Shown here in pieces: positions 3,480 to 63,470 of a DNA stretch of 64,000 nt. The translations under genes and the position numbers were made by a program. The notes under the pieces were generated by a model, which did no database searches, had not been told where the DNA came from, and was given only the letters and a program-made list of their open reading frames with translations. Numbering within the stretch: position 1 is the stretch's first letter; every line of letters begins with the position of its first letter. Source of the stretch: Heterodontus francisci (taxonomy: Eukaryota); the NCBI RefSeq assembly GCF_036365525.1, contig NC_090417.1, forward strand, positions 3,024,832 through 3,088,831, in the 5' to 3' direction.

Positions 3480-3890
3480 GGGGGGAGGGGTCCGGCAGGT
3501 TGTGGGGAGGGGCCTGGGTGACGTGGTGGGGGGGGAAAGGGGTCGGTCCGCGGCGAGAATCAGGGAGGCGGCGCCGGCTGGGCCTGTTCCGGGCCGGGTT
3601 CCGATCCCTATCCCGCCACCCGACCCCCGGTGGATAAGACTAACTCCCCTCCAAGCCGGTATCAGTGCCTTCAGCCGCGGGGTGAACATAAAAATAACCC
3701 CCGGGAGGCCGCGCTCCCTCACTCACCCGTCCAGCACCGCCGATCCGGTTCTCGCTTCCCGGTCAGCGGAGGCGGGATTGGAAACAACGAACAGGCCGCA
3801 GCCCCGCCCCTTTGCGCTGCTTCACCGGAAACCCCGGGGCCGGTAAAACAAAACCTCGCTTACCGACCAATCAGAGCGCGAGGGGAGCCA
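3480..3890 (-). promoter_or_regulatory. STAMBP CpG-island promoter and non-coding exon 1
   Basis: CpG-dense. Minus-strand donor GG|GTGAGT at 3726, GC box ccccgcccc ~3802, CCAAT box gaccaatcag ~3865, ETS-like ccggaa ~3826. Confidence 0.7.
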
Positions 3891-4084
3891 GCTGTCAATC
3901 ACTGACACAGGTCGGCAAACTCCGCCCAGCTGTCAATCACTGACACAGGTCGGCAAACTCCGCCCAGCTGTCAATCACTGACACAGGTCGGCAAACTCCG
4001 CCCAGCTGTCAATCACTGACACAGGTCGGCAAACTCCGCCCAGCTGTCAATCACTGCCCGCAGCTGGCAAGCCCCGCCCAGCTG
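3888..4084. repeat. 38-bp tandem repeat, ~5 copies, upstream of STAMBP
   Basis: Unit ccagctgtcaatcactgacacaggtcggcaaactccgc; ctgtcaatca at 3892, 3930, 3968, 4006, 4044. Confidence 0.95.
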
Positions 4085-7459: not shown

Positions 7460-8069
7460 TCAATTGTCCCATCGCAGATGTGTATTAAATCTGTCCCGGC
7501 CTCCAGAATTTAGCTTCCCCCCTCTGTTACTCCTTCCACCGCATGACAGCTGATAATTCTGCCAAGGGGACTCGGGCTGACTGCTCCACCGTGAGGACTC
7601 GGGCTGACTGCTCCACCGTGAGGACTCGGGCTGACTGCTCCACCGTGAGGACTCGGGCTGACTGCTCCACCGTGAGGACTCGGGCTGACTGCTCCACCGT
7701 GAGGACTCGGGCTGACTGCTCCACCGTGAGGACTCGGGCTGACTGCTCCACCGTGAGGACTCGGGCTGACTGCTCCACCGTGAGGACTCGGGCTGACTGC
7801 TCCACCGTGAGGACTCGGGCTGACTGCTCCACCGTGAGGACTCGGGCTGACTGCTCCTCCAGGATGATCCCTGTCTTCCATAATCCAGGTTGGAATATGC
7901 CTCCGTATGACCATTGTGCAGCACAGTTTGATGCACAGCACCAGACCCAAACCTTTGTCTCCCGGGATGCTGCACAGGCTGGTAGGGATAAGTAGACTGT
8001 TTAGGTGGGCAGGTGGATTGGCTGAACTCACGAAAGCCATTAGGTGTGCGACATTTTCCCTGGTACGGT
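7460..8069 (-). CDS. DUSP11: DUSP11 last coding exon (exon 9), low-complexity C-terminus with (SSRWSSQPE)n repeat
   Basis: Acceptor ttctcttacag at 8070-8080. Phase matches exon 8 (AG|A CCG TAC CAG GGA...). Open for 203 codons to TGA at 7460-7462. Minus-strand AATAAA downstream at ~6048 and ~5979. Confidence 0.75.
7569..7862. repeat. 27-bp coding minisatellite, 11 copies
   Basis: gactcgggctgactgctccaccgtgag starts at 7569 and repeats every 27 bp to 7839. Confidence 0.97.
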
Positions 8070-18392: not shown

Positions 18393-18965
18393 GGCTCCGC
18401 TGGCCTCCCTCTTACTGCCCGCCACCACCACCACCAGGCCCAAACCCCGGCACCAGCGCCCGGCTGCAGCCATTGCGCAGGCGCACCAGCCACATCCCGG
18501 CGAGGGAAAAGAAAAAAAGGACAGGAGCGCCATCTTTGTGCGGGGCGGACAGGCCGTCGCCACACTGGGAGGGGCGGGAAAAGGGGGGCGCCATCTTTGT
18601 GCGGGGCAGCCAGGTGGGCCGTCGCCACACTGGGAGGGGCGGGAAAAGGGGGGCGCCATCTTTGTGCGGGGCCGCCAGGTGGGCCGTCGCCACACTGGGA
18701 GGGGCGGTTAAAGGGAGTGTGTCAGTACGTGCGGGGCACAGGCGTGGCCGCCATTCTGAGGGTGGCAAGAGCCGGCGCCATTTCTGTGAGGGGTAAAGTA
18801 ACAGCCGCCGTATCTGTGGGAGGCAAATGCAATCCTCCTCACTTGATAAAGCCCATCGGAATTATATATATTTGCAGGTTTTCAATCGTTCCTTTCCGAT
18901 AAATCACGCGCGCTTTTGCAGCACGTGGCGATTTTGTTTACAGCAGGAAGCCGGGGTGAAGGGTC
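18393..18965. promoter_or_regulatory. CpG island; DUSP11 promoter and probable shared BRF2 promoter
   Basis: NRF1 motif tgcgcaggcgca 18474-18485; YY1-type cgccatcttt at 18528, 18589, 18654; repeated ggggcggg GC boxes; 61-65 bp tandem units. Confidence 0.75.
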
Positions 18966-19089: not shown

Positions 19090-22000
19090 TCCTGGGCATG
19101 TGTTAAATATTTACAGGGGGTCCTCGGGAGTGTGTCAGTATTTACAGGGGGTCCTCGGGAGTGTGTCAGTATTTACAGGGGGTCTCCGGGGAGCGTGTCA
19201 GTATTTACAGGGGTTCTCCGGGAGTGTGTCGGTATTTACAGGGGGTCTCCGGGAGCGTGTCAGTATTTACAGGGGGTCTCCGGGGAGCGTGTCAGTATTT
19301 ACAGGGGTTCTCCGGGAGTGTGTCGGTATTTACTGGGGTTCTCCGGGAGCGTGTCAGTATTTACAGGGGGTCTCCGGGGAGCGTGTCAGTATTTACAGGG
19401 GTTCTCCGGGAGTGTGTCGGTATTTACAGGGGGTCTCCGGGGAGTGTGTCAGTATTTACAGGGGTTCTCCGGGAGTGTGTCAGTATTTACAGGGGTTCTC
19501 CGGGAGTGTGTCGGTATTTACAGGGGTTCTCCGGGAGTGTGTCGGTATTTACAGGGGGTCTCCGGGGAGTGTGTCGGTATTTACTGGGGTTCTCCGGGAG
19601 TGTGTCAGTATTTACTGGGGTTCTCCGGGAGTGTGTCAGTATTTACAGGGGGTCTCCGGGAGTGTGTCGGTATTTACTGGGGGTCTCCGGGAGTGTGTCA
19701 GTATTTACAGGGGGTCTCCGGGAGTGTGTCAGTATTTACTGGGGTTCTCTGGGAGTGTGTCAGTATTTACAGGGGTTCTCCGGGAGTGTGTCGGTATTTA
19801 CAGGGGGTCTCTGGGAGTGTGTCAGTATTTACAGGGGGTCTCCGGGAGTGTGTCAGTATTTACTGGGGTTCTCCGGGAGTGTGTCAGTATTTACAGGGGG
19901 TCCTCGGGAGTGTGTCGGTATTTACTGGGGGTCTCCGGGAGTGTGTCAGTATTTACTGGGGTTCTCCGGGAGTGTGTCAGTATTTACAGGCGTTCTCCTG
20001 GAGTGTGTCAGTATTTACAGGGGTTCTCCGGGAGTGTGTCGGTATTTACAGGGGTTCTCCGGGAGTGTGTCAGTATTTACTGGGGGTCTCCGGGAGTGTG
20101 TCAGTATTTACAGGGGGTCCTCGGGAGTGTGTCGGTATTTACAGGGGGTCCTCGGGAGTGTGTCGGTATTTACTGGGGTCTCCGGGAGTGTGTCAGTATT
20201 TACAGGGGGTCCCCGGGAGTGTGTCGGTATTTACAGGGGGTCCTCGGGAGTGTGTCGGTATTTACTGGGGGTCTCCAGGAGTGTGTCAGTATTTACAGGG
20301 GTTCTCCGGGAGTGTGTCAGTATTTACAGGGGTTCTCCGGGAGTGTGTCAGTATTTACAGGGGTTCTCCGGGAGTGTGTCGGTATTTACTGGGGTTCTCC
20401 GGGAGTGTGTCAGTATTTACTGGGGTTCTCCGGGAGTGTGTCAGTATTTACTGGGGGTCTCCGGGAGTGTGTCGGTATTTACTGGGGGTCTCCGGGAGTG
20501 TGTCAGTATTTACTGGGGTTCTCCGGGAGTGTGTCAGTATTTACTGGGGTTCTCCGGGAGTGTGTCAGTATTTACTGGGGTTCTCCGGGAGTGTGTCAGT
20601 ATTTCCAGGGGGTCCTCGGGAGTGTGTCGGTATTTACAGGGGTTCTCCGGGAGTGTGTCGGTATTTACAGGGGGTCCCCGGGAGTGTGTCAGTATTTGCA
20701 GGGGGTCCCCGGGAGTGTGTCAGTATTTGCAGGGGGTCCTCGGGATTGTGTCAGTATTTACAGGGGGTCCTCGGGAGTGTGTCAGTATTTACAGGGGGTC
20801 TCCGGGAGTGTGTCAGTATTTACAGGGGGTCCTCGGGAGTGTGTCAGTATTTACAGGGGTTCTCCGGGAGTGTGTCAGTATTTACAGGGGGTCTCCGGGA
20901 GTGTGTCAGTATTTACAGGGGGTCTCCGGGAGTGTGTCAGTATTTACAGGGGGTCTCCGGGAGTGTGTCAGTATTTACTGGGGTTCTCCGGGAGTGTGTC
21001 AGTATTTACAGGGGGTCTCCGGGAGTGTGTCGGTATTTACTGGGGTTCTCCGGGAGTGTGTCGGTATTTACAGGGGGTCCTCGGGAGTGTGTCAGTATTT
21101 ACAGGGAGTCTCCGGGAGTGTGTCAGTATTTACAGGGGGTCCTCGGGAGTGTGTCAGTATTTACAGGGGGTCTCCGGGAGTGTGTCGGTATTTACAGGGG
21201 GTCCTCGGGATTGTGTCGGTATTTACAGGGGGTCCTCGGGATTGTGTCAGTATTTACTGGGGTTCTCCGGGAGTGTGTCAGTATTTACAGGGGGTCTCCG
21301 GGAGTATGTCGGTATTTACAGGGGGTCTCCGGGAGTGTGTCAGTATTTACAGGGGGTCTCCGGGAGTGTGTCTGTATTTACTGGGGTTCTCCGGGAGTGT
21401 GTCGGTATTTACAGGGAGTCTCCGGGAGTGTGTCAGTATTTACAGGGGTTCTCCGGGAGTGTGTCACTATTTACAGGGGGTCTCCGGGAGTGTGTCAGTA
21501 TTTACTGGGGTTCTCCGGGAGTGTGTCGGTATTTACAGGGGGTCCTCGGGAGTGTGTCGGTATTTACAGGGGGTCCTCGGGATTGTGTCAGTATTTACTG
21601 GGGGTCTCTGGGAGTGTGTCAGTATTTACTGGGGTTTTCCGGGAGTGTGTCGGTATTTACAGGGGGTCTCCGGGAGTGTGTCAGTATTTACTGGGGTTCT
21701 CCGGGAGTGTGTCGGTATTTACAGGGGGTCCTCGGGAGTGTGTCGGTATTTACAGGGGGTCCTCGGGATTGTGTCAGTATTTACTGGGGGTCTCTGGGAG
21801 TGTGTCAGTATTTACTGGGGTTTTCCGGGAGTGTGTCAGTATTTACAGGTGTTCTCCGGGAGTGTGTCAGTATTTACAGGGGGTCCTCGGGAGTGTGTCG
21901 GTATTTACAGGGGGTCCTCGGGAGTGTGTCGGTATTTACTGGGGTTCTCCGGGAGTGTGTCAGTATTTACTGGGGGTCTCCGGGAGTGTGTCAGTATTTA

Positions 22001-25000
22001 CTGGGGGTCTCCGGGAGTGTGTCAGTATTTACAGGGGTTCTCCGGGAGTGTGTCGGTATTTACTGGGGTTCTCCTGGAGTGTGTCAGTATTTACAGGGGG
22101 TCTCCGGGAGTGTGTCAGTATTTACTGGGGTTCTCCGGGAGTGTGTCGGTATTTACTGGGGTTCTCCGGGAGTGTGTCAGTATTTACAGGGGGTCCTCGG
22201 GAGTGTGTCAGTATTTACTGGGGGTCTCCGGGAGTGTGTCAGTATTTACAGGGGTTCTCCGGGAGTGTGTCGGTATTTACTGGGGTTCTCCGGGAGTGTG
22301 TCAGTATTTACAGGGGGTCCTCGGGATTGTGTCAGTATTTACTGGGGTTCTCCGGGAGTGTGTCGGTATTTACTGGGGTTCTCCGGGAGTGTGTCAGTAT
22401 TTACAGGGGGTCTCCGGGAGTGTGTCAGTATTTACTGGGGTTCTCCGGGAGTGTGTCAGTATTTACAGGGGGTCTCCGGGAGTGTGTCGGTATTTACAGG
22501 GGGTCCTCGGGAGTGTGTCGGTATTTACAGGGGGTCCTCGGGAGTGTGTCGGTATTTACAGGGGGTCCTCGGGATTGTGTCCGTATTTACTGGGGGTCTC
22601 TGGGAGTGTGTCAGTATTTACTGGGGTTCTCCGGGAGTGTGTCAGTATTTACTGGGGTTCTCCGGGAGTGTGTCAGTATTTACTGGGGTTCTCCGGGAGT
22701 GTGTCAGTATTTACTGGGGGTCCTCGGGAGTGTGTCGGTATTTACAGGGGTTCTCCGGGAGTGTGTCGGTATTTACAGGGGGTCTCCGGGAGTGTGTCAG
22801 TATTTACAGGGGTTCTCCGGGAGTGTGTCGGTATTTACTGGGGTTTTCCGGGAGTGTGTCAGTATTTACAGGGGGTCCTCGGGAGTGTGTCAGTATTTAC
22901 AGGGGTTCTCCGGGAGTGTGTCGGTATTTACTGGGGTTTTCCGGGAGTGTGTCAGTATTTACAGGGGGTCCTCGGGAGTGTGTCAGTATTTACAGGGGTT
23001 CTCCGGGAGTGTGTCACTATTTACAGGGGGTCTCCGGGAGTGTGTCAGTATTTACAGGGGTTCTCCGGGAGTGTGTCACTATTTGCAGGGGGTCTCCGTG
23101 AGTGTGTCACTATTTACAGGGGGTCTCCGGGAGTGTGTCACTATTTACAGGGGTTCTCCGGGAGTGTGTCGGTATTTACAGGTGTTCTCCGGGAGTGTGT
23201 CGGTATTTACAGGGGGTCCTCGGGATTGTGTCAGTATTTACTGGGGTTCTCCGGGAGTGTGTCGGTATTTACAGGGGGTTCTCCGGGAGTGTGTCAGTAT
23301 TTACAGGGGGTCTCCGGGAGTGTGTCACTATTTACAGGGGTTCTCCGGGAGTGTGTCGGTATTTACAGGTGTTCTCCGGGAGTGTGTCGGTATTTACAGG
23401 GGGTCCTCGGGATTGTGTCAGTATTTACTGGGGTTCTCCGGGAGTGTGTCGGTATTTACAGGGGGTTCTCCGGGAGTGTGTCAGTATTTACAGGGGTTCT
23501 CCGGGAGTGTGTCGGTATTTACTGGGGTTTTCCGGGAGTGTGTCGGTATTTACAGGGGGTCCTCGGGAGTGTGTCAGTATTTACAGGGGTTCTCCGGGAG
23601 TGTGTCGGTATTTACTGGGGTTTTCCGGGAGTGTGTCAGTATTTACAGGGGGTCCTCGGGAGTGTGTCAGTATTTACAGGGGTTCTCCGGGAGTGTGTCA
23701 GTATTTACAGGGGTTCTCCGGGAGTGTGTCAGTATTTACAGGGGTTCTCCGGGAGTGTGTCAGTATTTACAGGGGTTCTCCGGGAGTGTGTCACTATTTA
23801 CAGGGGGTCTCCGGGAGTGTGTCACTATTTACAGGGGGTCTCCGGGAGTGTGTCACTATTTACAGGGGGTCTCCGGGAGTGTGTCACTATTTACAGGGGT
23901 TCTCCGGGAGTGTGTCGGTATTTACAGGTGTTCTCCGGGAGTGTGTCGGTATTTACAGGGGGTCCTCGGGATTGTGTCAGTATTTACAGGGGGTTCTCCG
24001 GGAGTGTGTCGGTATTTACAGGGGGTTCTCCGGGAGTGTGTCGGTATTTACAGGGGTTCTCCGGGAGTGTGTCGGTATTTACTGGGGTTTTCCGGGAGTG
24101 TGTCAGTATTTACAGGGGGTCCTCGGGAGTGTGTCAGTATTTACAGGGGTTCTCCGGGAGTGTGTCACTATTTACAGGGGGTCTCCGGGAGTGTGTCAGT
24201 ATTTACAGGGGTTCTCCGGGAGTGTGTCACTATTTACAGGGGGTCTCCGGGAGTGTGTCGGTATTTACAGGGGGTCTCCGGGAGTGTGTCGGTATTTACA
24301 GGGGTTCTCCGGGAGTGTGTCGGTATTTACAGGGGTTCTCCGGGAGTGTGTCGGTATTTACAGGGGTTCTCCGGGAATGTGTCGGTATTTACAGGGGTTC
24401 TCCGGGAGTGTGTCGGTATTTACAGGGGTTCTCCGGGAGTGTGTCGGTATTTACAGGGGTTCTCCGGGAGTGTGTCGGTATTTACAGGGGTTCTCCGGGA
24501 GTGTGTCGGTATTTACTGGGGTTCTCCGGGAGTGTGTCGGTATTTACAGGGGGTCCTCGGGAGTGTGTCAGTATTTACTGGGGGTCTCCGGGAGTGTGTC
24601 AGTATTTACAGGGGTTCTCCGGGAGTGTGTCGGTATTTACTGGGGTTCTCCGGGAGTGTGTCAGTATTTACAGGGGGTCCTCGGGATTGTGTCAGTATTT
24701 ACTGGGGTTCTCCGGGAGTGTGTCGGTATTTACTGGGGTTCTCCGGGAGTGTGTCAGTATTTACAGGGGGTCTCCGGGAGTGTGTCGGTATTTACTGGGG
24801 TTCTCCGGGAGTGTGTCGGTATTTACAGGGGGTCTCCGGGAGTGTGTCGGTATTTACAGGGGGTCCTCGGGAGTGTGTCGGTATTTACAGGGGGTCCTCG
24901 GGATTGTGTCAGTATTTACTGGGGGTCTCTGGGAGTGTGTCAGTATTTACTGGGGTTCTCCGGGAGTGTGTCAGTATTTACTGGGGTTCTCCGGGAGTGT

Positions 25001-28000
25001 GTCAGTATTTACTGGGGTTCTCCGGGAGTGTGTCAGTATTTACTGGGGGTCCTCGGGAGTGTGTCGGTATTTACAGGGGTTCTCCGGGAGTGTGTCGGTA
25101 TTTACAGGGGGTCTCCGGGAGTGTGTCAGTATTTACAGGGGTTCTCCGGGAGTGTGTCGGTATTTACTGGGGTTTTCCGGGAGTGTGTCAGTATTTACAG
25201 GGGGTCCTCGGGAGTGTGTCAGTATTTACAGGGGTTCTCCGGGAGTGTGTCGGTATTTACTGGGGTTTTCCGGGAGTGTGTCAGTATTTACAGGGGGTCC
25301 TCGGGAGTGTGTCAGTATTTACAGGGGTTCTCCGGGAGTGTGTCACTATTTACAGGGGGTCTCCGGGAGTGTGTCAGTATTTACAGGGGTTCTCCGGGAG
25401 TGTGTCACTATTTACAGGGGGTCTCCGGGAGTGTGTCACTATTTACAGGGGGTCTCCGGGAGTGTGTCACTATTTACAGGGGTTCTCCGGGAGTGTGTCG
25501 GTATTTACAGGTGTTCTCCGGGAGTGTGTCGGTATTTACAGGGGGTCCTCGGGATTGTGTCAGTATTTACTGGGGTTCTCCGGGAGTGTGTCGGTATTTA
25601 CAGGGGGTTCTCCGGGAGTGTGTCAGTATTTACAGGGGTTCTCCGGGAGTGTGTCGGTATTTACTGGGGTTTTCCGGGAGTGTGTCAGTATTTACAGGGG
25701 GTCCTCGGGAGTGTGTCAGTATTTACAGGGGTTCTCCGGGAGTGTGTCACTATTTACAGGGGGTCTCCGGGAGTGTGTCAGTATTTACAGGGGTTCTCCG
25801 GGAGTGTGTCACTATTTACAGGGGGTCTCCGGGAGTGTGTCGGTATTTACAGGGGGTCTCCGGGAGTGTGTCGGTATTTACAGGGGGTCTCCGGGAGTGT
25901 GTCGGTATTTACAGGGGTTCTCCGAGAGTGTGTCGGTATTTACAGGGGTTCTCCGGGAGTGTGTCGGTATTTACAGGGGTTCTCCGGGAGTGTGTCGGTA
26001 TTTACAGGGGTTCTCCGGGAGTGTGTCGGTATTTACAGGGGTTCTCCGGGAGTGTGTCGGTATTTACAGGGGTTCTCCGGGAGTGTGTCGGTATTTACAG
26101 GGGTTCTCCGGGAGTGTGTCGGTATTTACAGGGAGTCTCCGGGAGTGTGTCGGTATTTACAGGGAGTCTCCGGGAGTGTGTCGGTATTTACAGGGGTTCT
26201 CCGGGAGTGTGTCGGTATTTACTGGGGGTCTCCGGGAGTGTGTCGGTATTTACAGGGGTTCTCCGGGAGTGTGTCGGTATTTACAGGGGTTCTCCGGGAG
26301 TGTGTCGGTATTTACAGGGGTTCTCCGGGAGTGTGTCGGTATTTACAGCGGGTCTCCGGGAGTGTGTCGGTATTTACAGGGGTTCTCCGGGAGTGTGTCG
26401 GTATTTACTGGGGTTCTCCGGGAGTGTGTCGGTATTTACTGGGGTTCTCCGGGAGTGTGTCGGTATTTACAGGGGTTCTCCGGGAGTGTGTCGGTATTTA
26501 CAGGGGTTCTCCGGGAGTGTGTCGGTATTTACAGGGGTTCTCCGGGAGTGTGTCGGTATTTACAGGGGTTCTCCGGGAGTGTGTCGGTATTTACAGGGGT
26601 TCTCCGGGAGTGTGTCGGTATTTACAGGGGGTCTCCGGGAGTGTGTCAGTATTTACAGGGGTTCTCCGGGAGTGTGTCAGTATTTACAGGGGTTCTCCGG
26701 GAGTCTGTCAGTATTTACAGGGGTTCTCCGGGAGTCTGTCAGTATTTACAGGGGTTCTCCGGGAGTGTGTCAGTATTTACAGGGGTTCTCCGGGAGTCTG
26801 TCAGTATTTACAGGGGTTCTCCGGGAGTGTGTCAGTATTTACAGGGGTTCTCCGGGAGTCTGTCAGTATTTACAGGGGTTCTCCGGGAGTGTGTCAGTAT
26901 TTACAGGGGTTCTCCGGGAGTCTGTCAGTATTTACAGGGATTCTCCGGGAGTGTGTCAGTATTTACTGGGGGTCCTCGGGTTTGTGTCAGTATTTACTGG
27001 GGGTCCTCGGGATTGTGTCAGTATTTACAGGGGTTCTCCGGGAGTGTGTCAGTATTTACAGGGGGTCCCCGGGAGTGTGTCAGTATTTACAGGGGGTCCC
27101 CGGGAGTGTGTCAGTATTTACAGGGGGTCTCCGGGAGTGTGTCAGTATTTACAGGGGTTCTCCGGGAGTGTGTCACTATTTACTGGGGGTCTCCGGGAGT
27201 GTGTCACTATTTACTGGGGGTCCTCGGGAGTGTGTCAGTATTTACAGGGGGTCCTCGGGAGTGTGTCAGTATTTACAGGGGTCCCGGGGAGTGTGTCAGT
27301 ATTTACAGGGGGTCCTCGGGAGTGTGTCAGTATTTACAGGGGTCCCGGGAGTGTGTCACTATTTACAGGGTGTCCTCGGGATTATGTCAGTATTTACTGG
27401 GGGTCTCCGGGAGTGTGTCAGTATTTACAGCGGGTCTCCGGGAGTGTGTCGGTATTTACAGGGGTTCTCCGGGAGTGTGTCGGTATTTACTGGGGTTCTC
27501 CGGGAGTGTGTCGGTATTTACTGGGGTTCTCCGGGAGTGTGTCGGGATTTACAGGGGTTCTCCGGGAGTGTGTCGGTATTTACAGGGGTTCTCCGGGAGT
27601 GTGTCGGTATTTACAGGGGTTCTCCGGGAGTGTGTCGGTATTTACAGGGGTTCTCCGGGAGTGTGTCGGTATTTACAGGGGTTCTCCGGGAGTGTGTCAG
27701 TATTTACAGGGGGTCTCCGGGAGTGTGTCAGTATTTACAGGGGTTCTCCGGGAGTGTGTCAGTATTTACAGGGGTTCTCCGGGAGTCTGTCAGTATTTAC
27801 AGGGGTTCTCCGGGAGTCTGTCAGTATTTACAGGGGTTCTCCGGGAGTGTGTCAGTATTTACAGGGGTTCTCCGGGAGTGTGTCAGTATTTACAGGGGTT
27901 CTCCGGGAGTGTGTCAGTATTTACAGGGGTTCTCCGGGAGTCTGTCAGTATTTACAGGGGTTCTCCGGGAGTGTGTCAGTATTTACAGGGGTTCTCCGGG

Positions 28001-29320
28001 AGTCTGTCAGTATTTACAGGGATTCTCCGGGAGTGTGTCAGTATTTACTGGGGGTCCTCGGGATTGTGTCAGTATTTACTGGGGGTCCTCGGGATTGTGT
28101 CAGTATTTACAGGGGTTCTCCGGGAGTGTGTCAGTATTTACAGGGGGTCTCCGGGAGTGTGTCAGTATTTACAGGGGGTCCCCGGGAGTGTGTCAGTATT
28201 TACAGGGGGTCTCCGGGAGTGTGTCAGTATTTACAGGGGTTCTCCGGGAGTGTGTCACTATTTACTGGGGGTCTCCGGGAGTGTGTCACTATTTACTGGG
28301 GGTCCTCGGGAGTGTGTCAGTATTTACAGGGGGTCCTCGGGAGTGTGTCAGTATTTACAGGGGTCCCGGGGAGTGTGTCAGTATTTACAGGGGGTCCTCG
28401 GGAGTGTGTCAGTATTTACAGGGGTCCCGGGAGTGTGTCACTATTTACAGGGGGTCCTCGGGATTATGTCAGTATTTACTGGGGGTCTCCGGGAGTGTGT
28501 CAGTATTTACAGGGGTTCTCCGGGAGTGTGTCACTATTTGCAGGGGGTCTCCGGGAGTGTGTCAGTATTTACAGGGGGTCCTCGGGAGTGTGTCAGTATT
28601 TACAGGGGGTCCTCGGGAGTGTGTCACTATTTACAGGGGGTCCTCGGGATTGTGTCAGTATTTACTGGGGGTCTCCGGGAGTGTGTCAGTATTTACTGGG
28701 GGTCCTCGGGAGTGTGTCAGTATTTACAGGGGGTCCTCGGGAGTGTGTCAGTATTTACAGGGGGTCCTCGGGAGTGTGTCAGTATTTACAGGGGTCCCGG
28801 GAGTGTGTCAGTATTTACAGGGGGTCCTCGGGAGTGTGTCAGTATTTACAGGGGTCCTCGGGAGTGTGTCAGTATTTACAGGGGTCCTCGGGAGTGTGTC
28901 AGTATTTACAAGGGGTCCTCGGGAGTGTCAGTATTTACAGTGGTCCCGGGAATGTGTCAGTATTTACAGAGGGTCTCCGGGAGTGTGTCAGTATTTACAG
29001 GGGGTCCTCAGGAGTTTGTCTGTATTTACAGGGGGTCTATGGGAGTGTGTCAGTCTCTCCAGGGGTTTGGGAGGGTGTCAGTATCTCCAGGGGTTTGGGA
29101 GGGTGTCAGTATTTACAGGGGTTTGGGAGGGTGTCAGTATTTACAGGGGTATGGGAGGGTGTCAGTCTCTACAGGGGTTTGGGAGGGTGTCAGTCTCTAC
29201 AGGGGTTTGGGAGGGTGTCAGTCTCTACAGGGGTTTGGGAGGGTGTCAGTATTTACAGGGGTTTGGGAGGGTGTCAGTATCTCCAGGGGTTTGAGAGAGT
29301 GTCAGTATCTCCAGGGTGTT
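19090..29320. repeat. ~10.2 kb tandem array of a 31-bp unit (roughly 325 copies), ending in a 28-bp variant
   Basis: Unit gggagtgtgtc(a/g)gtatttac(a/t)gggg(tt/gt)ctcc. 28-bp variant gggagggtgtcagtctctacaggggttt from ~29050. Confidence 0.98.
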
Positions 29321-50791: not shown

Positions 50792-50882
50792 CATTCGATG
50801 TGCATCCACAAGGTAAGTGTCGTACCCACAGCCTGTCACAAGGTGAGAGGTTTTCACTGCATCAGGAACAAGACACAAGAAG
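50792..50882 (-). CDS. FHIP2B: FHIP2B exon 13
   Basis: FLCLVPDAVKTSHLVTGCGYDTYLVDAHRM; 91 nt. Confidence 0.9.
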
Positions 50883-51034
50883 CTGGAACACAAACACACA
50901 CAAGCTGAAGTCTGGAAATGTTACCAGTCCTGAGTTTGCTCGCAATTCCTTTACGGATTCCTCCATCTTTCCTCTGATCCTCACTTTTCAGCCTTATCCC
51001 ATTCCATGCCAGCCGTGGCTCAGGTTTTTTGTTA

Positions 51035-51812
51035 TTATTAATTTCATGGGATGTGTGTGTCGCTGGCAAGGCCAGCATTTATTGCCCATCCCTAATTGCC
51101 CTTGAGAAGGTGGTGGTGAGCTGCCTTCTTGAACCGCTGCAGTCCATGTCGGGTAGCTACACCCACAGTGCTGTTACGGAGGGAGTTCCAGGATTTTGAT
51201 CCAAACGACAGTGAAGGAAAGATGATATATTTCCAAGTCCATGGTGTGTGGCTTGGCAGGGAACTTGCAGATGGCAACATTCCCCCGCGTCTGCTGCCCT
51301 TGTCCTTCTAGGTGGTAGAGGTCGCGGGTTTGGAAAGTGCTGTTGAAGGAGCCTTGCTGCATTGTTGCTGTGCATCTTGTATATGGTACACAATGCTGCC
51401 ACTGTGTGTCAGTGGTGTAGGGAGTGAATGTTTGTAGATGGGGTGCTGATCAAGCGACCTGTTTTGTCCTGGATGGTGTCGAACTTCTTGAGTGTTGTTG
51501 CAGCTGCACCCATCCAGGCAAGTGGAGAGTATTCCATCATACTCCTCTGACTTGTGTCTTGTAAATGGTGGACAGGCATTGAGGCAGGAGGTGAGTTAGT
51601 CACCACAGAATTCCCAGCCTCTGATCTGTTCTGGTAGCCACAGTATTTATATGGCTGGTCCAGTTCAGTTTCTGGTCAATGTTAACCCCCAGGATGTTGA
51701 TGGTAGGGGATTCAGCGATGGTAATGGCATGAAATGTCAAGGGGAATTGGTTAAATGCTGTCTTGTTGGAGATCGTCATAGCCTGGCACTTGTGTGGCGC
51801 GAATGTTACTTG
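51035..51812 (-). mobile_element. Shark CR1/L2-group LINE 3' fragment
   Basis: MEYSPLAWMGAAATTLKKFDTIQDK on the minus strand. Confidence 0.8.
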
Positions 51813-52103
51813 CCCTCTGAATCAGAAGGTTCTGGGTTCAAGTCCCACTCCAGGGCTTGAGCACAAAAATCTAGGCTGACCCTCCAGTGCTGCACTGTCA
51901 GAGGTGTCGTCTTTCAGATGAGATGTTAAACCAAGGTCCTGTCTGCCCTTCAGGTGGACGTGTAAGAGCCCATGGCACTATTTTGAAGCAGAGCAAGGGA
52001 GTTATCCCTAGTGTCCTGGCCAATATTTATCCCTCAGTCAATGAAAAAATTACTTAGTCATTATCACATTGCTATTTGTGGGATCTTGCTATTTGCAAAT
52101 TGG

Positions 52104-52388
52104 CTGTCGAGAGCAAAAAACTGAGATTTGGCACTTACCTGTCGAGAGCAGGAAGCTGAGATTCGGCACTCACCTGTCGAGAGCAGGAAGCTGAGATTTG
52201 GCACTCACCTGTCGAGAGCAGGAAGCTGAGATTCGGCACTCACCTGTCGAGAGCAGGAAGCTGAGATTCGGCACTCACCTGTCGAGAGCAGGAAGCTGAG
52301 ATTCGGCACTCACCTGTCGAGAGCAGGAAGCTGAGATTCGGCACTCACCTGTCGAGAGCAGGAAGCTGAAATTCGGCACTCACCTGTT
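52104..52388. repeat. 35-bp tandem repeat, 8 copies, spanning the FHIP2B exon 12 splice donor
   Basis: Unit gtcgagagcaggaagctgagattcggcactcacct. Confidence 0.97.
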
Positions 52389-52524
52389 GACTATTCTGTT
52401 GACCTCTGATTTCCCATCAGCCTTTGTTGCCGCTTGCATTGCTGCAGGTGGAACAAGCCAATCAGAAGCTGGGAATCTGCTCCCTGTGTAGATGTCAGTG
52501 AAGAAAGGATCTTCTTCCAATTCT
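52384..52524 (-). CDS. FHIP2B: FHIP2B exon 12
   Basis: ELEEDPFFTDIY...DGKSEVNRIVNS; 141 nt. Confidence 0.88.
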
Positions 52525-53097: not shown

Positions 53098-53406
53098 TCA
53101 CACTGCAGCAACACATGGTGCGCTTCACAATATATTTAAAGCTAACAGTTTGTATATTAGTGCAGCCTAGGTTACAAACTCAAACACTGATATGGGACCC
53201 AAACCATCTGACCCAGGGGCGAGAGTTCTGTCAACTGAGCCCAGGTCGGATGCTGTATTTAGTAACAACTGCTTCAACAGAAGTTTTAAATTGAGCAGCT
53301 GGTAAACCTTTTAACAAAATCTGATGAGTGTGAGCGGCTGAACCTCACTGCACTGACCTGTGACCTCTCCCCGTGCTGACGGCGCCAGACTGACCTGTGA
53401 CCTCAC

Positions 53407-61089: not shown

Positions 61090-63470
61090 ACTACCCTAGT
61101 CCTCAAACTCTCCCATCGAAGCCCATCCCTCTAGTCCCCTAACTCTCCAGTGAAACCCATCCCTCGAGTCCCCTAACTCTCCATTGAAACCCATCCCTCT
61201 AGTCCCCTAACTCTCCATTGAAACCCATCTCTCCAGTCCCCTCTCCATTGAAACCCATCCCTCTAGTCCCCTAACTCTCCATCGAAGCCTATCTCTCTCG
61301 TCCCCTAACTCTCCATTGAAACCCATCCCTTTCGTCTACTAACTCTCCATCGAAGCCCATCTCCCGCGTCCCCTAACTCTCCATCGAAGCCCATCTCTCT
61401 AGTCCCCTAACTCTCCATTGAAACCCATCTCTCTAGTCCCCTAACTCTCCATTGAAGCCCATCTCTCCAGTCTCCTAACTCTCCATCGAAGCCCATCTCT
61501 CCAGTCCCCTAACTCTCTGTTTAAACCCCTCTCTCTCTAGTCCCCTAACTCTCCATCGAAGCCCATCTCTCTAGTCTCCTAACTCTCCATTGAAGCCCAT
61601 CTCTCCAGTCTCCTAACTCTCCATCGAAGCCCATCTCTCCAGTCCCCTAACTCTCCGTTTAAACCCCTCTCTCTCTAGTCCCCTAACTCTCCATCGAAGC
61701 CCATCTCTCTAGTCCCCTAACTCTCCATCGAAACCCATCTCTCTAGTCCCCTAACTCTCCATTGAAGCCCATCTCTCCAGTCCCCTAACTCTCCGTTTAA
61801 ACCCCTCTCTCTCTAGTCCCCTAACTCTCCATTGAAGCCCATCTCTCTAGTCCCCTAACTCTCCCATCAAAACCCATCTCTCTAGTCCCCTAACTCTCCA
61901 TTGAAACCCATCCCTCTAGTCCCCTAACTCTCCATTGAAGCCCATCTCTCTAGTCCCCTAACTCTCCATCGAAACCCATCTCTCTAGTCCCCTAACTCTC
62001 CATTGAAACCCATCCCTCTAGTCCCCTAACTCTCCATCGAAACCCATCTCTCTAGTCCCCTAACTCTCCATTGAAGCCCATCTCTCCAGTCTCCTAACTC
62101 TCCATCGAAGCCCATCTCTCCAGTCCCCTAACTCTCCGTTTAAACCCCTCTCTCTCTAGTCCCCTAACTCTCCATTGAAGCCCATCTCTCCAGTCTCCTA
62201 ACTCTCCATCGAAGCCCATCTCTCTAGTCCCCTAACTCTCCATCGAAGCCCATCTCTCTAGTCCCCTAACTCTCCATCGAAGCCCATCTCTCTAGTCCCC
62301 TAACTCTCCATCGAAGCCCATCTCTCCAGTCCCCTAACTCTCCGTTTAAACCCCTCTCTCTCTAGTCCCCTAACTCTCCATCGAAGCCCATCTCTCTAGT
62401 CCCCTAACTCTCCATTGAAACCCATCTCTCCAGACCCCTAACTCTCCAACAAAGCCCATCTCTCTCGTCTCCTAACTCTCCATCGAAACCCATTCCTCTA
62501 GTCCCCTAACTCTCCATTGAAACCCATCTCTCCAGACCCCTAACTCTCCAACAAAGCCCATCTCTCTCGTCTCCTAACTCTCCATCGAAACCCATCCCTC
62601 TAGTCCCCTAACTCTCCATTGAAACCTATCTCTCCAGACCCCTAACTCTCCAACAAAGCCCATCTCTCTCGTCTCCTAACTCTCCATCGAAACCCATCCC
62701 TCTAGTCCCCTAACTCTCCATTGAAACCCATCTCTCCAGACCCCTAACTCTCCAACAAAGCCCATCTCCCTAGTCCCCGAATTCTCCATCGAAGCCCATC
62801 TCTCTAGTTCCATAATTCTCTATCGAAGCCCATCTCTCTCCAGTTCCCTAACTCTCCAACAAAGCCCATCTCCCTAGTCCCCGAATTCTCCATCGAAGTC
62901 CATCTCTCTAGTCCCCGAATTCTCCATCGAAACCCATCCCTATAGTCCCCTAACTCTCCATCGAAACCCATCCCTCTAGTCCCCTAACTCTCCATTGAAA
63001 CCCATCTCTCCAGACCCCTAACTCTCCAACAAAGCCCATCTCCCTAGTCCCCGAATTCTCCATCGAAGCCCATCTCTCTAGTCCCCGAATTCTCCATCGA
63101 AGCCCATCTCTCTAGTCCCCGAATTCTCCATCGAAGCCCATCTCTCTAGTTCCATAATTCTCCATCGAAGCCCATCTCTCTCCAGTTCCCTAACTCTCCA
63201 ACAAAGCCCATCTCCCTAGTCCCCGAATTCTCCATCGAAGCCCATCTCTCTAGTCCCCGAATTCTCCATCGAAGCCCATCTCTCTAGTTCCATAATTCTC
63301 CATCGAAGCCCATCTCTCTAGTCCCCTAACTCTCCATCGAAACCCATTCCTCTAGTCCCCTAATTCTCCATCGAAACCCATCCCTATAGTCCCCTAACTC
63401 TCCATCGAAGCTCATCTCTCTAGTTCCCTAACTCTCCCATTGAAACCCATCTCTCTTTTAGCCCATCTCT
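61090..63470. repeat. ~2.4 kb tandem array of a 34-bp pyrimidine-rich unit (~70 copies)
   Basis: Unit ctctagtcccctaactctccatcgaagcccatct. Confidence 0.97.

What the first reader, a model, noticed from the sequence alone, without database searches (positions are those of the whole stretch)
52104..52388. Tandem array of eight splice donors at FHIP2B exon 12, each also a recursive-splice-like AG|GT, guarded by an in-frame stop
Seen on the minus strand: the true donor CAACAG|GTGAGT (52383) is followed every 35 nt by CTTCCTGCTCTCGACAG|GTGAGT at 52348, 52313, 52278, 52243, 52208 and 52173, then by a perfect CAG|GTAAGT at 52138. Each copy is a pyrimidine tract + CAG + consensus donor, the form of a ratchet point. 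Reading past the first donor gives AGG TGA, so use of any distal donor creates a premature stop with five downstream exons, predicting NMD. Inference: a copy-number-tunable poison-splicing or U1-decoy device, or a natural test of how the correct donor wins against seven equal or stronger competitors.
Basis: partly seen in the sequence, partly recalled or inferred. Interest (0 to 1): 0.7.

Follow-up and report, generated by a model that had tools for sequence, protein, structure and literature searches.

The report
Repeated splice donor in shark FHIP2B
A 35-base repeat at the start of one intron of a shark FHIP2B gene copies the exon's splice signal seven extra times, but the main assembled transcripts in two species use the first, correct signal, so it is likely a tolerated example of a repeat type already described in several human genes.

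Summary
The array is real: eight 35-nt units (52383-52104, minus strand), each starting GT(G/A)AGT after CAG. The gene is an intact FHIP2B orthologue, 729/729 identical to a horn-shark RefSeq protein. It is a boundary-spanning minisatellite of the human F7 IVS7 / CBS / IFI6 and amphioxus 'mirage' kind; the scan noted this kind before on other DNA, including a shark EMILIN1. In 3 of 4 runs laid (two species, three studies) the dominant contig joins exon 12 directly to exon 13 at donor 52383; no distal-donor joint is among the 15 listed, 226 were hidden. The 'guard' stop is a by-product: 4 of this gene's 5 phase-2 introns have it. AG|GT is simply the copied donor, in a 1.5-kb intron. The unit's 3' end matches both the exon end and a truncated repeat element, giving a slippage seed. 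A related species has the array too, with a GT>GC unit variant and unexplained high array depth. Minor NMD-destined leak is not excluded; a designed device is unsupported.

The parts
52104..52383 (-). Minisatellite: 8 x 35-nt units, each beginning with a 5' splice-site consensus
52384..52524 (-). FHIP2B exon 12 (141 nt, ends in phase 2); its last 7 nt match the unit's last 7 nt at 6 of 7 positions
   Evidence: covered with 0-1 differences by spliced contigs
52378..52386 (-). Authentic donor (first intron base 52383), the one used in the spliced contigs
   Evidence: joint 50882-52384 in X2, X5, X8
52380..52382 (-). In-frame TGA formed by intron positions +2..+4 of the phase-2 donor
52133..52351 (-). 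Seven pseudo-donors at 52348, 52313, 52278, 52243, 52208, 52173 (GTGAGT) and 52138 (GTAAGT)
51816..52111 (+). Interspersed repeat (SINE-like; family not determined, 'HE1-like' is recalled), antisense to the gene and cut off at its 3' end inside unit 8; its last 8 aligned bases are the 3' end of the repeat unit
   Evidence: blastn to three other copies in the window, alignment, loose end at 52106 in X8
50883..52383 (-). Intron 12, 1501 nt
50792..50882 (-). FHIP2B exon 13 and its acceptor

Best explanation
This is a minisatellite whose unit includes the exon 12 splice donor, so every copy repeats CAG|GT(G/A)AGT; the dominant assembled transcripts splice at the first donor, and the seven extra donors are likely near-silent passengers. 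Origin (inferred): a 7-nt imperfect direct repeat, the exon end and the broken end of an antisense SINE-like fragment 35 nt downstream, seeded slippage or unequal exchange, and the unit was then amplified and homogenised, with the edge units diverging. Donor choice (inferred from the F7 experiments): exon definition and 5'-to-3' priority commit the first strong donor, which is as strong as its copies; any transcript that slips to a later donor carries the TGA that every phase-2 GTGA donor makes and would be removed by NMD, which keeps the array harmless rather than making it a regulator.
For: Array anatomy and edge divergence. Exon end vs unit end 6/7 identical; repeat-element homology runs 8 nt into the unit's 3' end and its family's contigs leave the window sequence at 52106 (table 7). 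Joint 50882-52384 at depth 220 (X2), 277 (X5), 60 (X8); in X8 record 20 exon 13 (record 1208-1298) abuts exon 12 (1299-1439) with no array bases between. In organism A the array is at intronic background: mean 3.9 vs 6.4 in X2, 4.7 vs 2.3-4.2 in X1. All 3 RefSeq isoforms of the identical protein read VN|SFL across this junction. Immediate stop in 4 of 5 phase-2 introns. 7 clear minisatellites in this 64-kb window; about 0.06-0.12 per such window are expected to start on a donor by chance (rough estimate). Precedent: F7, IFI6, CBS, LMNB2, PDGF (PMC1557585); amphioxus mirages (PMC3087553). In organism B the deeper of two array contigs has GT>GC at +2 of the repeated donor (91.4 of 126.9), which argues against conservation of decoy donors.
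Against: Only contigs were available: they drop rare variants, NMD was active, and 226 joints were not shown, so low-level distal use is untested. 1 of the 4 runs (X1) had no spliced contig here. The pseudo-donors are stronger than F7's (8-9 Watson-Crick pairs to the U1-type consensus); in F7 minigenes CAG/gtgagt copies took about 70-90% of splicing from a weak first site, and IFI6 and CBS use two pseudo-sites each. In organism B the array is much deeper than intron background (X5 mean 38.8, peak 126.9, against 2.2-4.3), which a longer array would explain but so would real exon extension. The array is shared by two species whose exons differ at 10 of 733 bases, so it is not ephemeral.
Confidence: 0.8

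Rival explanations
1. Copy-number-tuned poison splicing: a sizeable share of transcripts uses distal donors, is destroyed by NMD, and unit number or GT/GC state sets FHIP2B dose.
For: Every distal product has a stop 508-718 nt before the last junction; copies are consensus-grade; perfect copies can compete in F7 minigenes; array depth in organism B is a third to a half of mRNA depth at its peak.
Against: No excess array depth in organism A; no distal joint among the 15 listed; F7 site choice did not change with 1-12 units; the stop is automatic.
Confidence: 0.1
2. Recursive splicing: donor 52383 splices to a unit's CAG, regenerating an identical donor that then splices to exon 13.
For: AG|GT with 12 of 17 pyrimidines upstream; the final mRNA would be indistinguishable from the normal one, so cannot exclude it.
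Against: Intron is 1501 nt and sites are 35-245 nt from the real donor, whereas described RS sites sit in long introns (PMC6110456 passages); tracts have 5 T against 6-11 in the 16 real acceptors and a competing AG at -19, seen within 20 nt in only 1 of 16 real acceptors; +2 variant in organism B.
Confidence: 0.04
3. U1 decoy or enhancer: the extra sites load U1 snRNP to strengthen exon 12 definition or protect against premature polyadenylation, and were selected for it.
For: Eight U1-complementary sites in 280 nt; persistence in two species.
Against: Donor 1 is already among the strongest of the gene's 15; unit variants that lose GT in organism B; F7 deletions and insertions showed no regulatory effect on site choice.
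Confidence: 0.04
4. Assembly artefact.
For: Short perfect repeats can be mis-counted.
Against: Units carry distinct variants; contigs from all four runs lie on the array, some fitting two places.
Confidence: 0.02

Closest known systems
Human F7 intron 7 VNTR (37 bp, 5-9 copies); Borensztajn et al. 2006, PMC1557585 (read parts 1, 3 and 4 of 6 of the text)
   Same: First unit spans the exon-intron boundary with about 4 exonic bases, similar unit length and copy number, identical donors repeated, first donor used.
   Different: Shark gene; the repeated donor is consensus-grade CAG|GTGAGT (F7: TGG|gtgggt, CV 74); all distal uses hit a stop (in F7 two pseudo-sites do not); unit 3' end appears to derive from a SINE-like fragment.
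IFI6 (6-16) intron 2, CBS IVS13, LMNB2 and PDGF boundary minisatellites (as summarised in the introduction of PMC1557585; primary papers not seen)
   Same: Same architecture: donor reiterated by a minisatellite.
   Different: IFI6 and CBS use two pseudo-sites besides the real one; no such use was seen here at contig level.
'Mirage' minisatellites of amphioxus (Adh3, globins BflGb6/9); PMC3087553 (passages read)
   Same: Tandem duplication of an exon-intron boundary, AG/GT kept in many copies, divergent edge units, reported not to disturb normal splicing.
   Different: Vertebrate; shorter unit than the globin cases; length polymorphism not tested here.
Latent 5' splice sites and suppression of splicing (SOS); PMC3510495 (abstract and outline only)
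   Same: Intronic consensus donors preceded by an in-frame stop and normally unused.
   Different: That abstract says most such sites are preceded by a stop, so the stop here is the rule; the F7 paper found stop-free pseudo-sites also unused.
Recursive splice (ratchet) sites; PMC6110456 (passages read)
   Same: AGGT motif with a pyrimidine-rich upstream stretch.
   Different: Short intron, next to the real donor, modest tract, no conservation shown, no intermediate reads.

Membership tests
Boundary-spanning (F7-type / mirage) minisatellite | Head-to-tail array of 10-100 nt units | tested here: met
   period 35, 8.1 copies, 96%
Boundary-spanning (F7-type / mirage) minisatellite | First unit spans an authentic exon-intron boundary | tested here: met
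   TRF array starts 4 nt inside exon 12 (52387); boundary confirmed by RNA contigs
Boundary-spanning (F7-type / mirage) minisatellite | Splice signal reiterated in the intronic copies | tested here: met
   7 of 7 further units keep CAG|GTRAGT
Boundary-spanning (F7-type / mirage) minisatellite | Authentic (most upstream) site dominates | tested here: met
   joint 50882-52384 in 3 of 4 runs; minor forms not measurable
Boundary-spanning (F7-type / mirage) minisatellite | Length polymorphism between alleles | not testable with these tools
   only contigs; unit variants and deeper array in organism B hint at turnover
Recursive splice site | AGGT motif | tested here: met
Recursive splice site | In a long intron, far from annotated sites (5 kb and 2 kb were the pipeline cut-offs in PMC6110456) | tested here: not met
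   intron 1501 nt; sites 35-245 nt from the donor
Recursive splice site | Strong 3' splice site | tested here: inconclusive
   no MaxEntScan; 12/17 pyrimidines (real 9-15) but 5 T (real 6-11) and an AG at -19
Recursive splice site | Evolutionary conservation | tested here: inconclusive
   array present in one close relative, with a GT>GC unit variant; no distant genomes available
Recursive splice site | Intermediate junction reads, lariats or sawtooth coverage | not testable with these tools
   no raw reads served
Poison splicing (AS-NMD) element | Alternative form carries a stop well upstream of the last junction | tested here: met
   508-718 nt
Poison splicing (AS-NMD) element | Alternative form is actually made and rises on NMD block | tested here: inconclusive
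   not among 15 listed joints, 226 hidden; no NMD-block data
FHIP2B (FAM160B2) orthologues | FAM160 domains and grouping with named FHIP2B | tested here: met
   PF10257 on 4 and PF19314 on 1 of 7 exons scanned; tree, 100/100 away from FHIP2A

The most novel reading that the evidence does not exclude
The array leaks a real share of FHIP2B transcripts into NMD through its perfect-consensus copies, and the sister species has answered by spreading a GT>GC variant through a longer array: a minisatellite gene-dosage dial caught being silenced by concerted evolution, seeded by a SINE fragment.
Probability: 0.08. Interest if true: 0.55.

Novelty: new member of a known kind. Interest (0 to 1): 0.17.

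Why it matters
As it stands it adds one more vertebrate case of a known repeat type and shows that first-donor priority holds, at the level of the main transcript, even when seven downstream copies are perfect consensus sites, the condition under which F7 minigenes began to leak. If raw reads showed copy-number-dependent leak, or selection for GC copies in the related species, it would be a neat natural experiment on 5' splice-site competition; nothing found here shows that.

Tried and rejected
Whole-genome search for the unit: no genome is held for this window; within the window the unit has no other match longer than 10 nt. Run search: 8 runs listed, none on record as RNA ('no RNA holder listed'), all contigs; 4 of 8 were laid, and three proved spliced. 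X1 had no spliced contig over these exons (no evidence either way). RNA structure as the reason donor 1 wins: mean unpaired probability 0.24-0.33 for donor 1 against 0.15-0.27 for the copies and a median of 0.27 for the gene's 15 real donors: a slight trend, not a discriminator. Stop codon as an evolved guard: rejected. RNA editing as source of the +2 variant in organism B: it is T>C on the transcribed strand, not A>G, so a genomic variant is likelier; no DNA run to confirm. Literature: no paper on this locus in one search of FHIP2B/FAM160B2/shark/minisatellite/splicing (8 listed, none relevant by title); two searches for human VNTRs with repeated donors and copy-number effects gave 0 and 1 paper (PMC13747324, listing only); PMC10078293 and PMC2630376 passages added nothing on donor-repeating arrays beyond the CBS VNTR's existence. 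No supplements were read. No look-alike of this locus among earlier scan notes.

Full report
Observation. TRF gives period 35, 8.1 copies, 96% matches. Five units are identical, units 1 and 6 differ at one base, unit 8 at five. The 9-mer does not occur elsewhere on that strand of the window, and the unit has no other match over 10 nt in the window.

The gene. Sixteen exons from 63851 to about 41590 give an open frame of 729 codons that is identical at 729 of 729 residues to a Heterodontus francisci RefSeq protein. NCBI names it 'FHIP2A-like', but in a tree of 23 proteins chosen it falls with the 5 named FHIP2B rows and apart from the 9 named FHIP2A rows, shark FHIP2A included (100/100; midpoint root). 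Pfam gives PF10257 for 4 and PF19314 for 1 of 7 exons scanned. The array therefore sits at the start of a 1501-nt intron of an intact FHIP2B orthologue.

Which donor is used. Eight runs hold the stretch, all as assembled contigs; I laid four. In three of them, from two organisms and three studies, one contig runs exon 10-11-12-13 with the joint 50882-52384, at depth 220 (X2, organism A, no differences from the window), 277 (X5) and 60 (X8) (organism B, 10 differences in 733 exon bases). In X8 the exon 13 and exon 12 pieces are adjacent in the record with no array bases between. X1 shows no spliced contig here. No joint from a later donor is among the 15 listed, but 226 less-supported joints were hidden, contigs drop rare forms, and NMD was active, so this shows dominance, not exclusivity. 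In organism A the array's depth is at intronic background (X2 3.9 against 6.4; X1 4.7 against 2.3-4.2).

Organism B. Its runs also hold the array. In X5 two contigs cover it with variants: one (depth 91.4 of 126.9) changes +2 of the repeated donor from T to C, i.e. GT to GC; the other (35.5) changes +8; X8 has a +26 variant. Which unit the tool places them on is arbitrary. So the array predates the split of two close relatives, yet its donor dinucleotide is not held constant. Unexplained: array depth in B is well above intron background (X5 mean 38.8 against 2.2-4.3). A longer array collapsed by the assembler, a second locus with the unit, or real exon extension could each produce this; the tool warns that such depth is no copy number.

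The stop. The intron is in phase 2, so GT(G/A)A automatically reads TGA or TAA as the next codon. Four of the gene's five phase-2 introns (after exons 9, 11, 12, 16) do so, and all 15 introns reach a stop within 48 codons. Any distal product would indeed carry a stop 508-718 nt before the last junction, so NMD is predicted, but the 'guard' needs no special explanation; the SOS literature says most latent donors are preceded by a stop (PMC3510495 abstract).

The ratchet-like form. A consensus donor is CAG|GTRAGT, so any tandem copy has AG|GT. As acceptors the units have 12 of 17 pyrimidines (real acceptors 9-15) but 5 T (real 6-11; unit 8, which has no GT after it, has 8) and a competing AG at -19, which only 1 of 16 real acceptors has within 20 nt. 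Described recursive sites are long-intron, strong, conserved sites (PMC6110456 passages). The first segment, 35 nt, is below the usual vertebrate minimum intron size (recalled). Recursive use would give a normal mRNA and cannot be excluded, but nothing calls for it.

Origin (inferred). The exon's last 7 nt and the unit's last 7 nt match at 6 positions. Directly downstream lies an interspersed repeat with three more copies in the window and very deep coverage in all runs; its homology runs to 52109-52111, i.e. about 8 nt into the 3' end of unit 8, where it is cut off (loose end at 52106). That it is a shark SINE is recalled, not tested. The simplest history is that the broken end of this antisense element supplied a short direct repeat 35 nt from the exon end and slippage or unequal exchange amplified the interval. 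The order of events is not shown. The region is rich in minisatellites: seven clear arrays in 64 kb; a rough calculation expects 0.06-0.12 per such window to start on a donor (the higher figure assumes about 28 donors, counted by eye).

Comparison. PMC1557585 (parts 1, 3, 4 of 6 read) describes the human F7 IVS7 VNTR: 37-bp unit, first unit spanning the boundary, 4-8 identical pseudo-donors, only the first used; 1-12 units did not change the choice; only CAG/gtgagt copies competed with the weak first site (about 70-90%). It lists IFI6 and CBS (two pseudo-sites used) and LMNB2 and PDGF (none). Amphioxus 'mirages' are the same arrangement (PMC3087553 passages). The shark locus meets the testable defining features of this class and fails the long-intron feature of recursive sites. 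Its one distinguishing point is that all copies are consensus-grade, with the first as strong as six of the others and one pair weaker than the last. Earlier notes of this scan record the same kind in other genomes, including a 56-copy case in a shark EMILIN1 (unchecked AI notes, not used as support).

Verdict. Real, correctly described, ordinary in kind: new member of a known class, interest 0.17. Shown: anatomy, gene, dominant donor, automatic stop, presence and variants in a relative. Inferred: origin, scanning-type choice, NMD of leaks. Open: minor distal use and the array depth in organism B.

Noticed in passing
window 53404-53352 (minus): After exon 10 a 16-nt motif ending in a second donor occurs twice, 37 nt apart (donor G at 53394 and 53357). 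RefSeq isoforms X1 and X3 carry VRSQ here, i.e. use the in-frame donor 12 nt downstream of the main one; the contigs laid use the upstream donor. A small two-copy version of the same donor duplication.
   Followed up: partly
window 7568-7857 (minus): A perfect 27-nt x 10.7 repeat lies in an open frame (SSQPESSRW repeats in one frame) in what looks like the last exon of a DUSP11-like gene (gene name recalled from exons at 18.4-12 kb): a probable coding VNTR.
   Followed up: no
window 19108-29289: A 10.2-kb array of a 31-nt unit (329 copies) between the 5' end of the DUSP11-like gene and a BRF2-like gene (names recalled).
   Followed up: no
window 61096-63456: A 34-nt x 69 minisatellite filling most of FHIP2B intron 2, not touching either splice site.
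   Followed up: no
window 3888-4084 and 18527-18715: Short arrays (38 nt x 5.2; 65 nt x 3) just upstream of GC-rich first exons of a STAMBP-like and the DUSP11-like gene (names recalled): promoter-region repeats.
   Followed up: no
FHIP2B gene, P0001: The shark gene NCBI calls 'FHIP2A-like' groups with FHIP2B in the tree, with a separate shark FHIP2A clade.
   Followed up: yes
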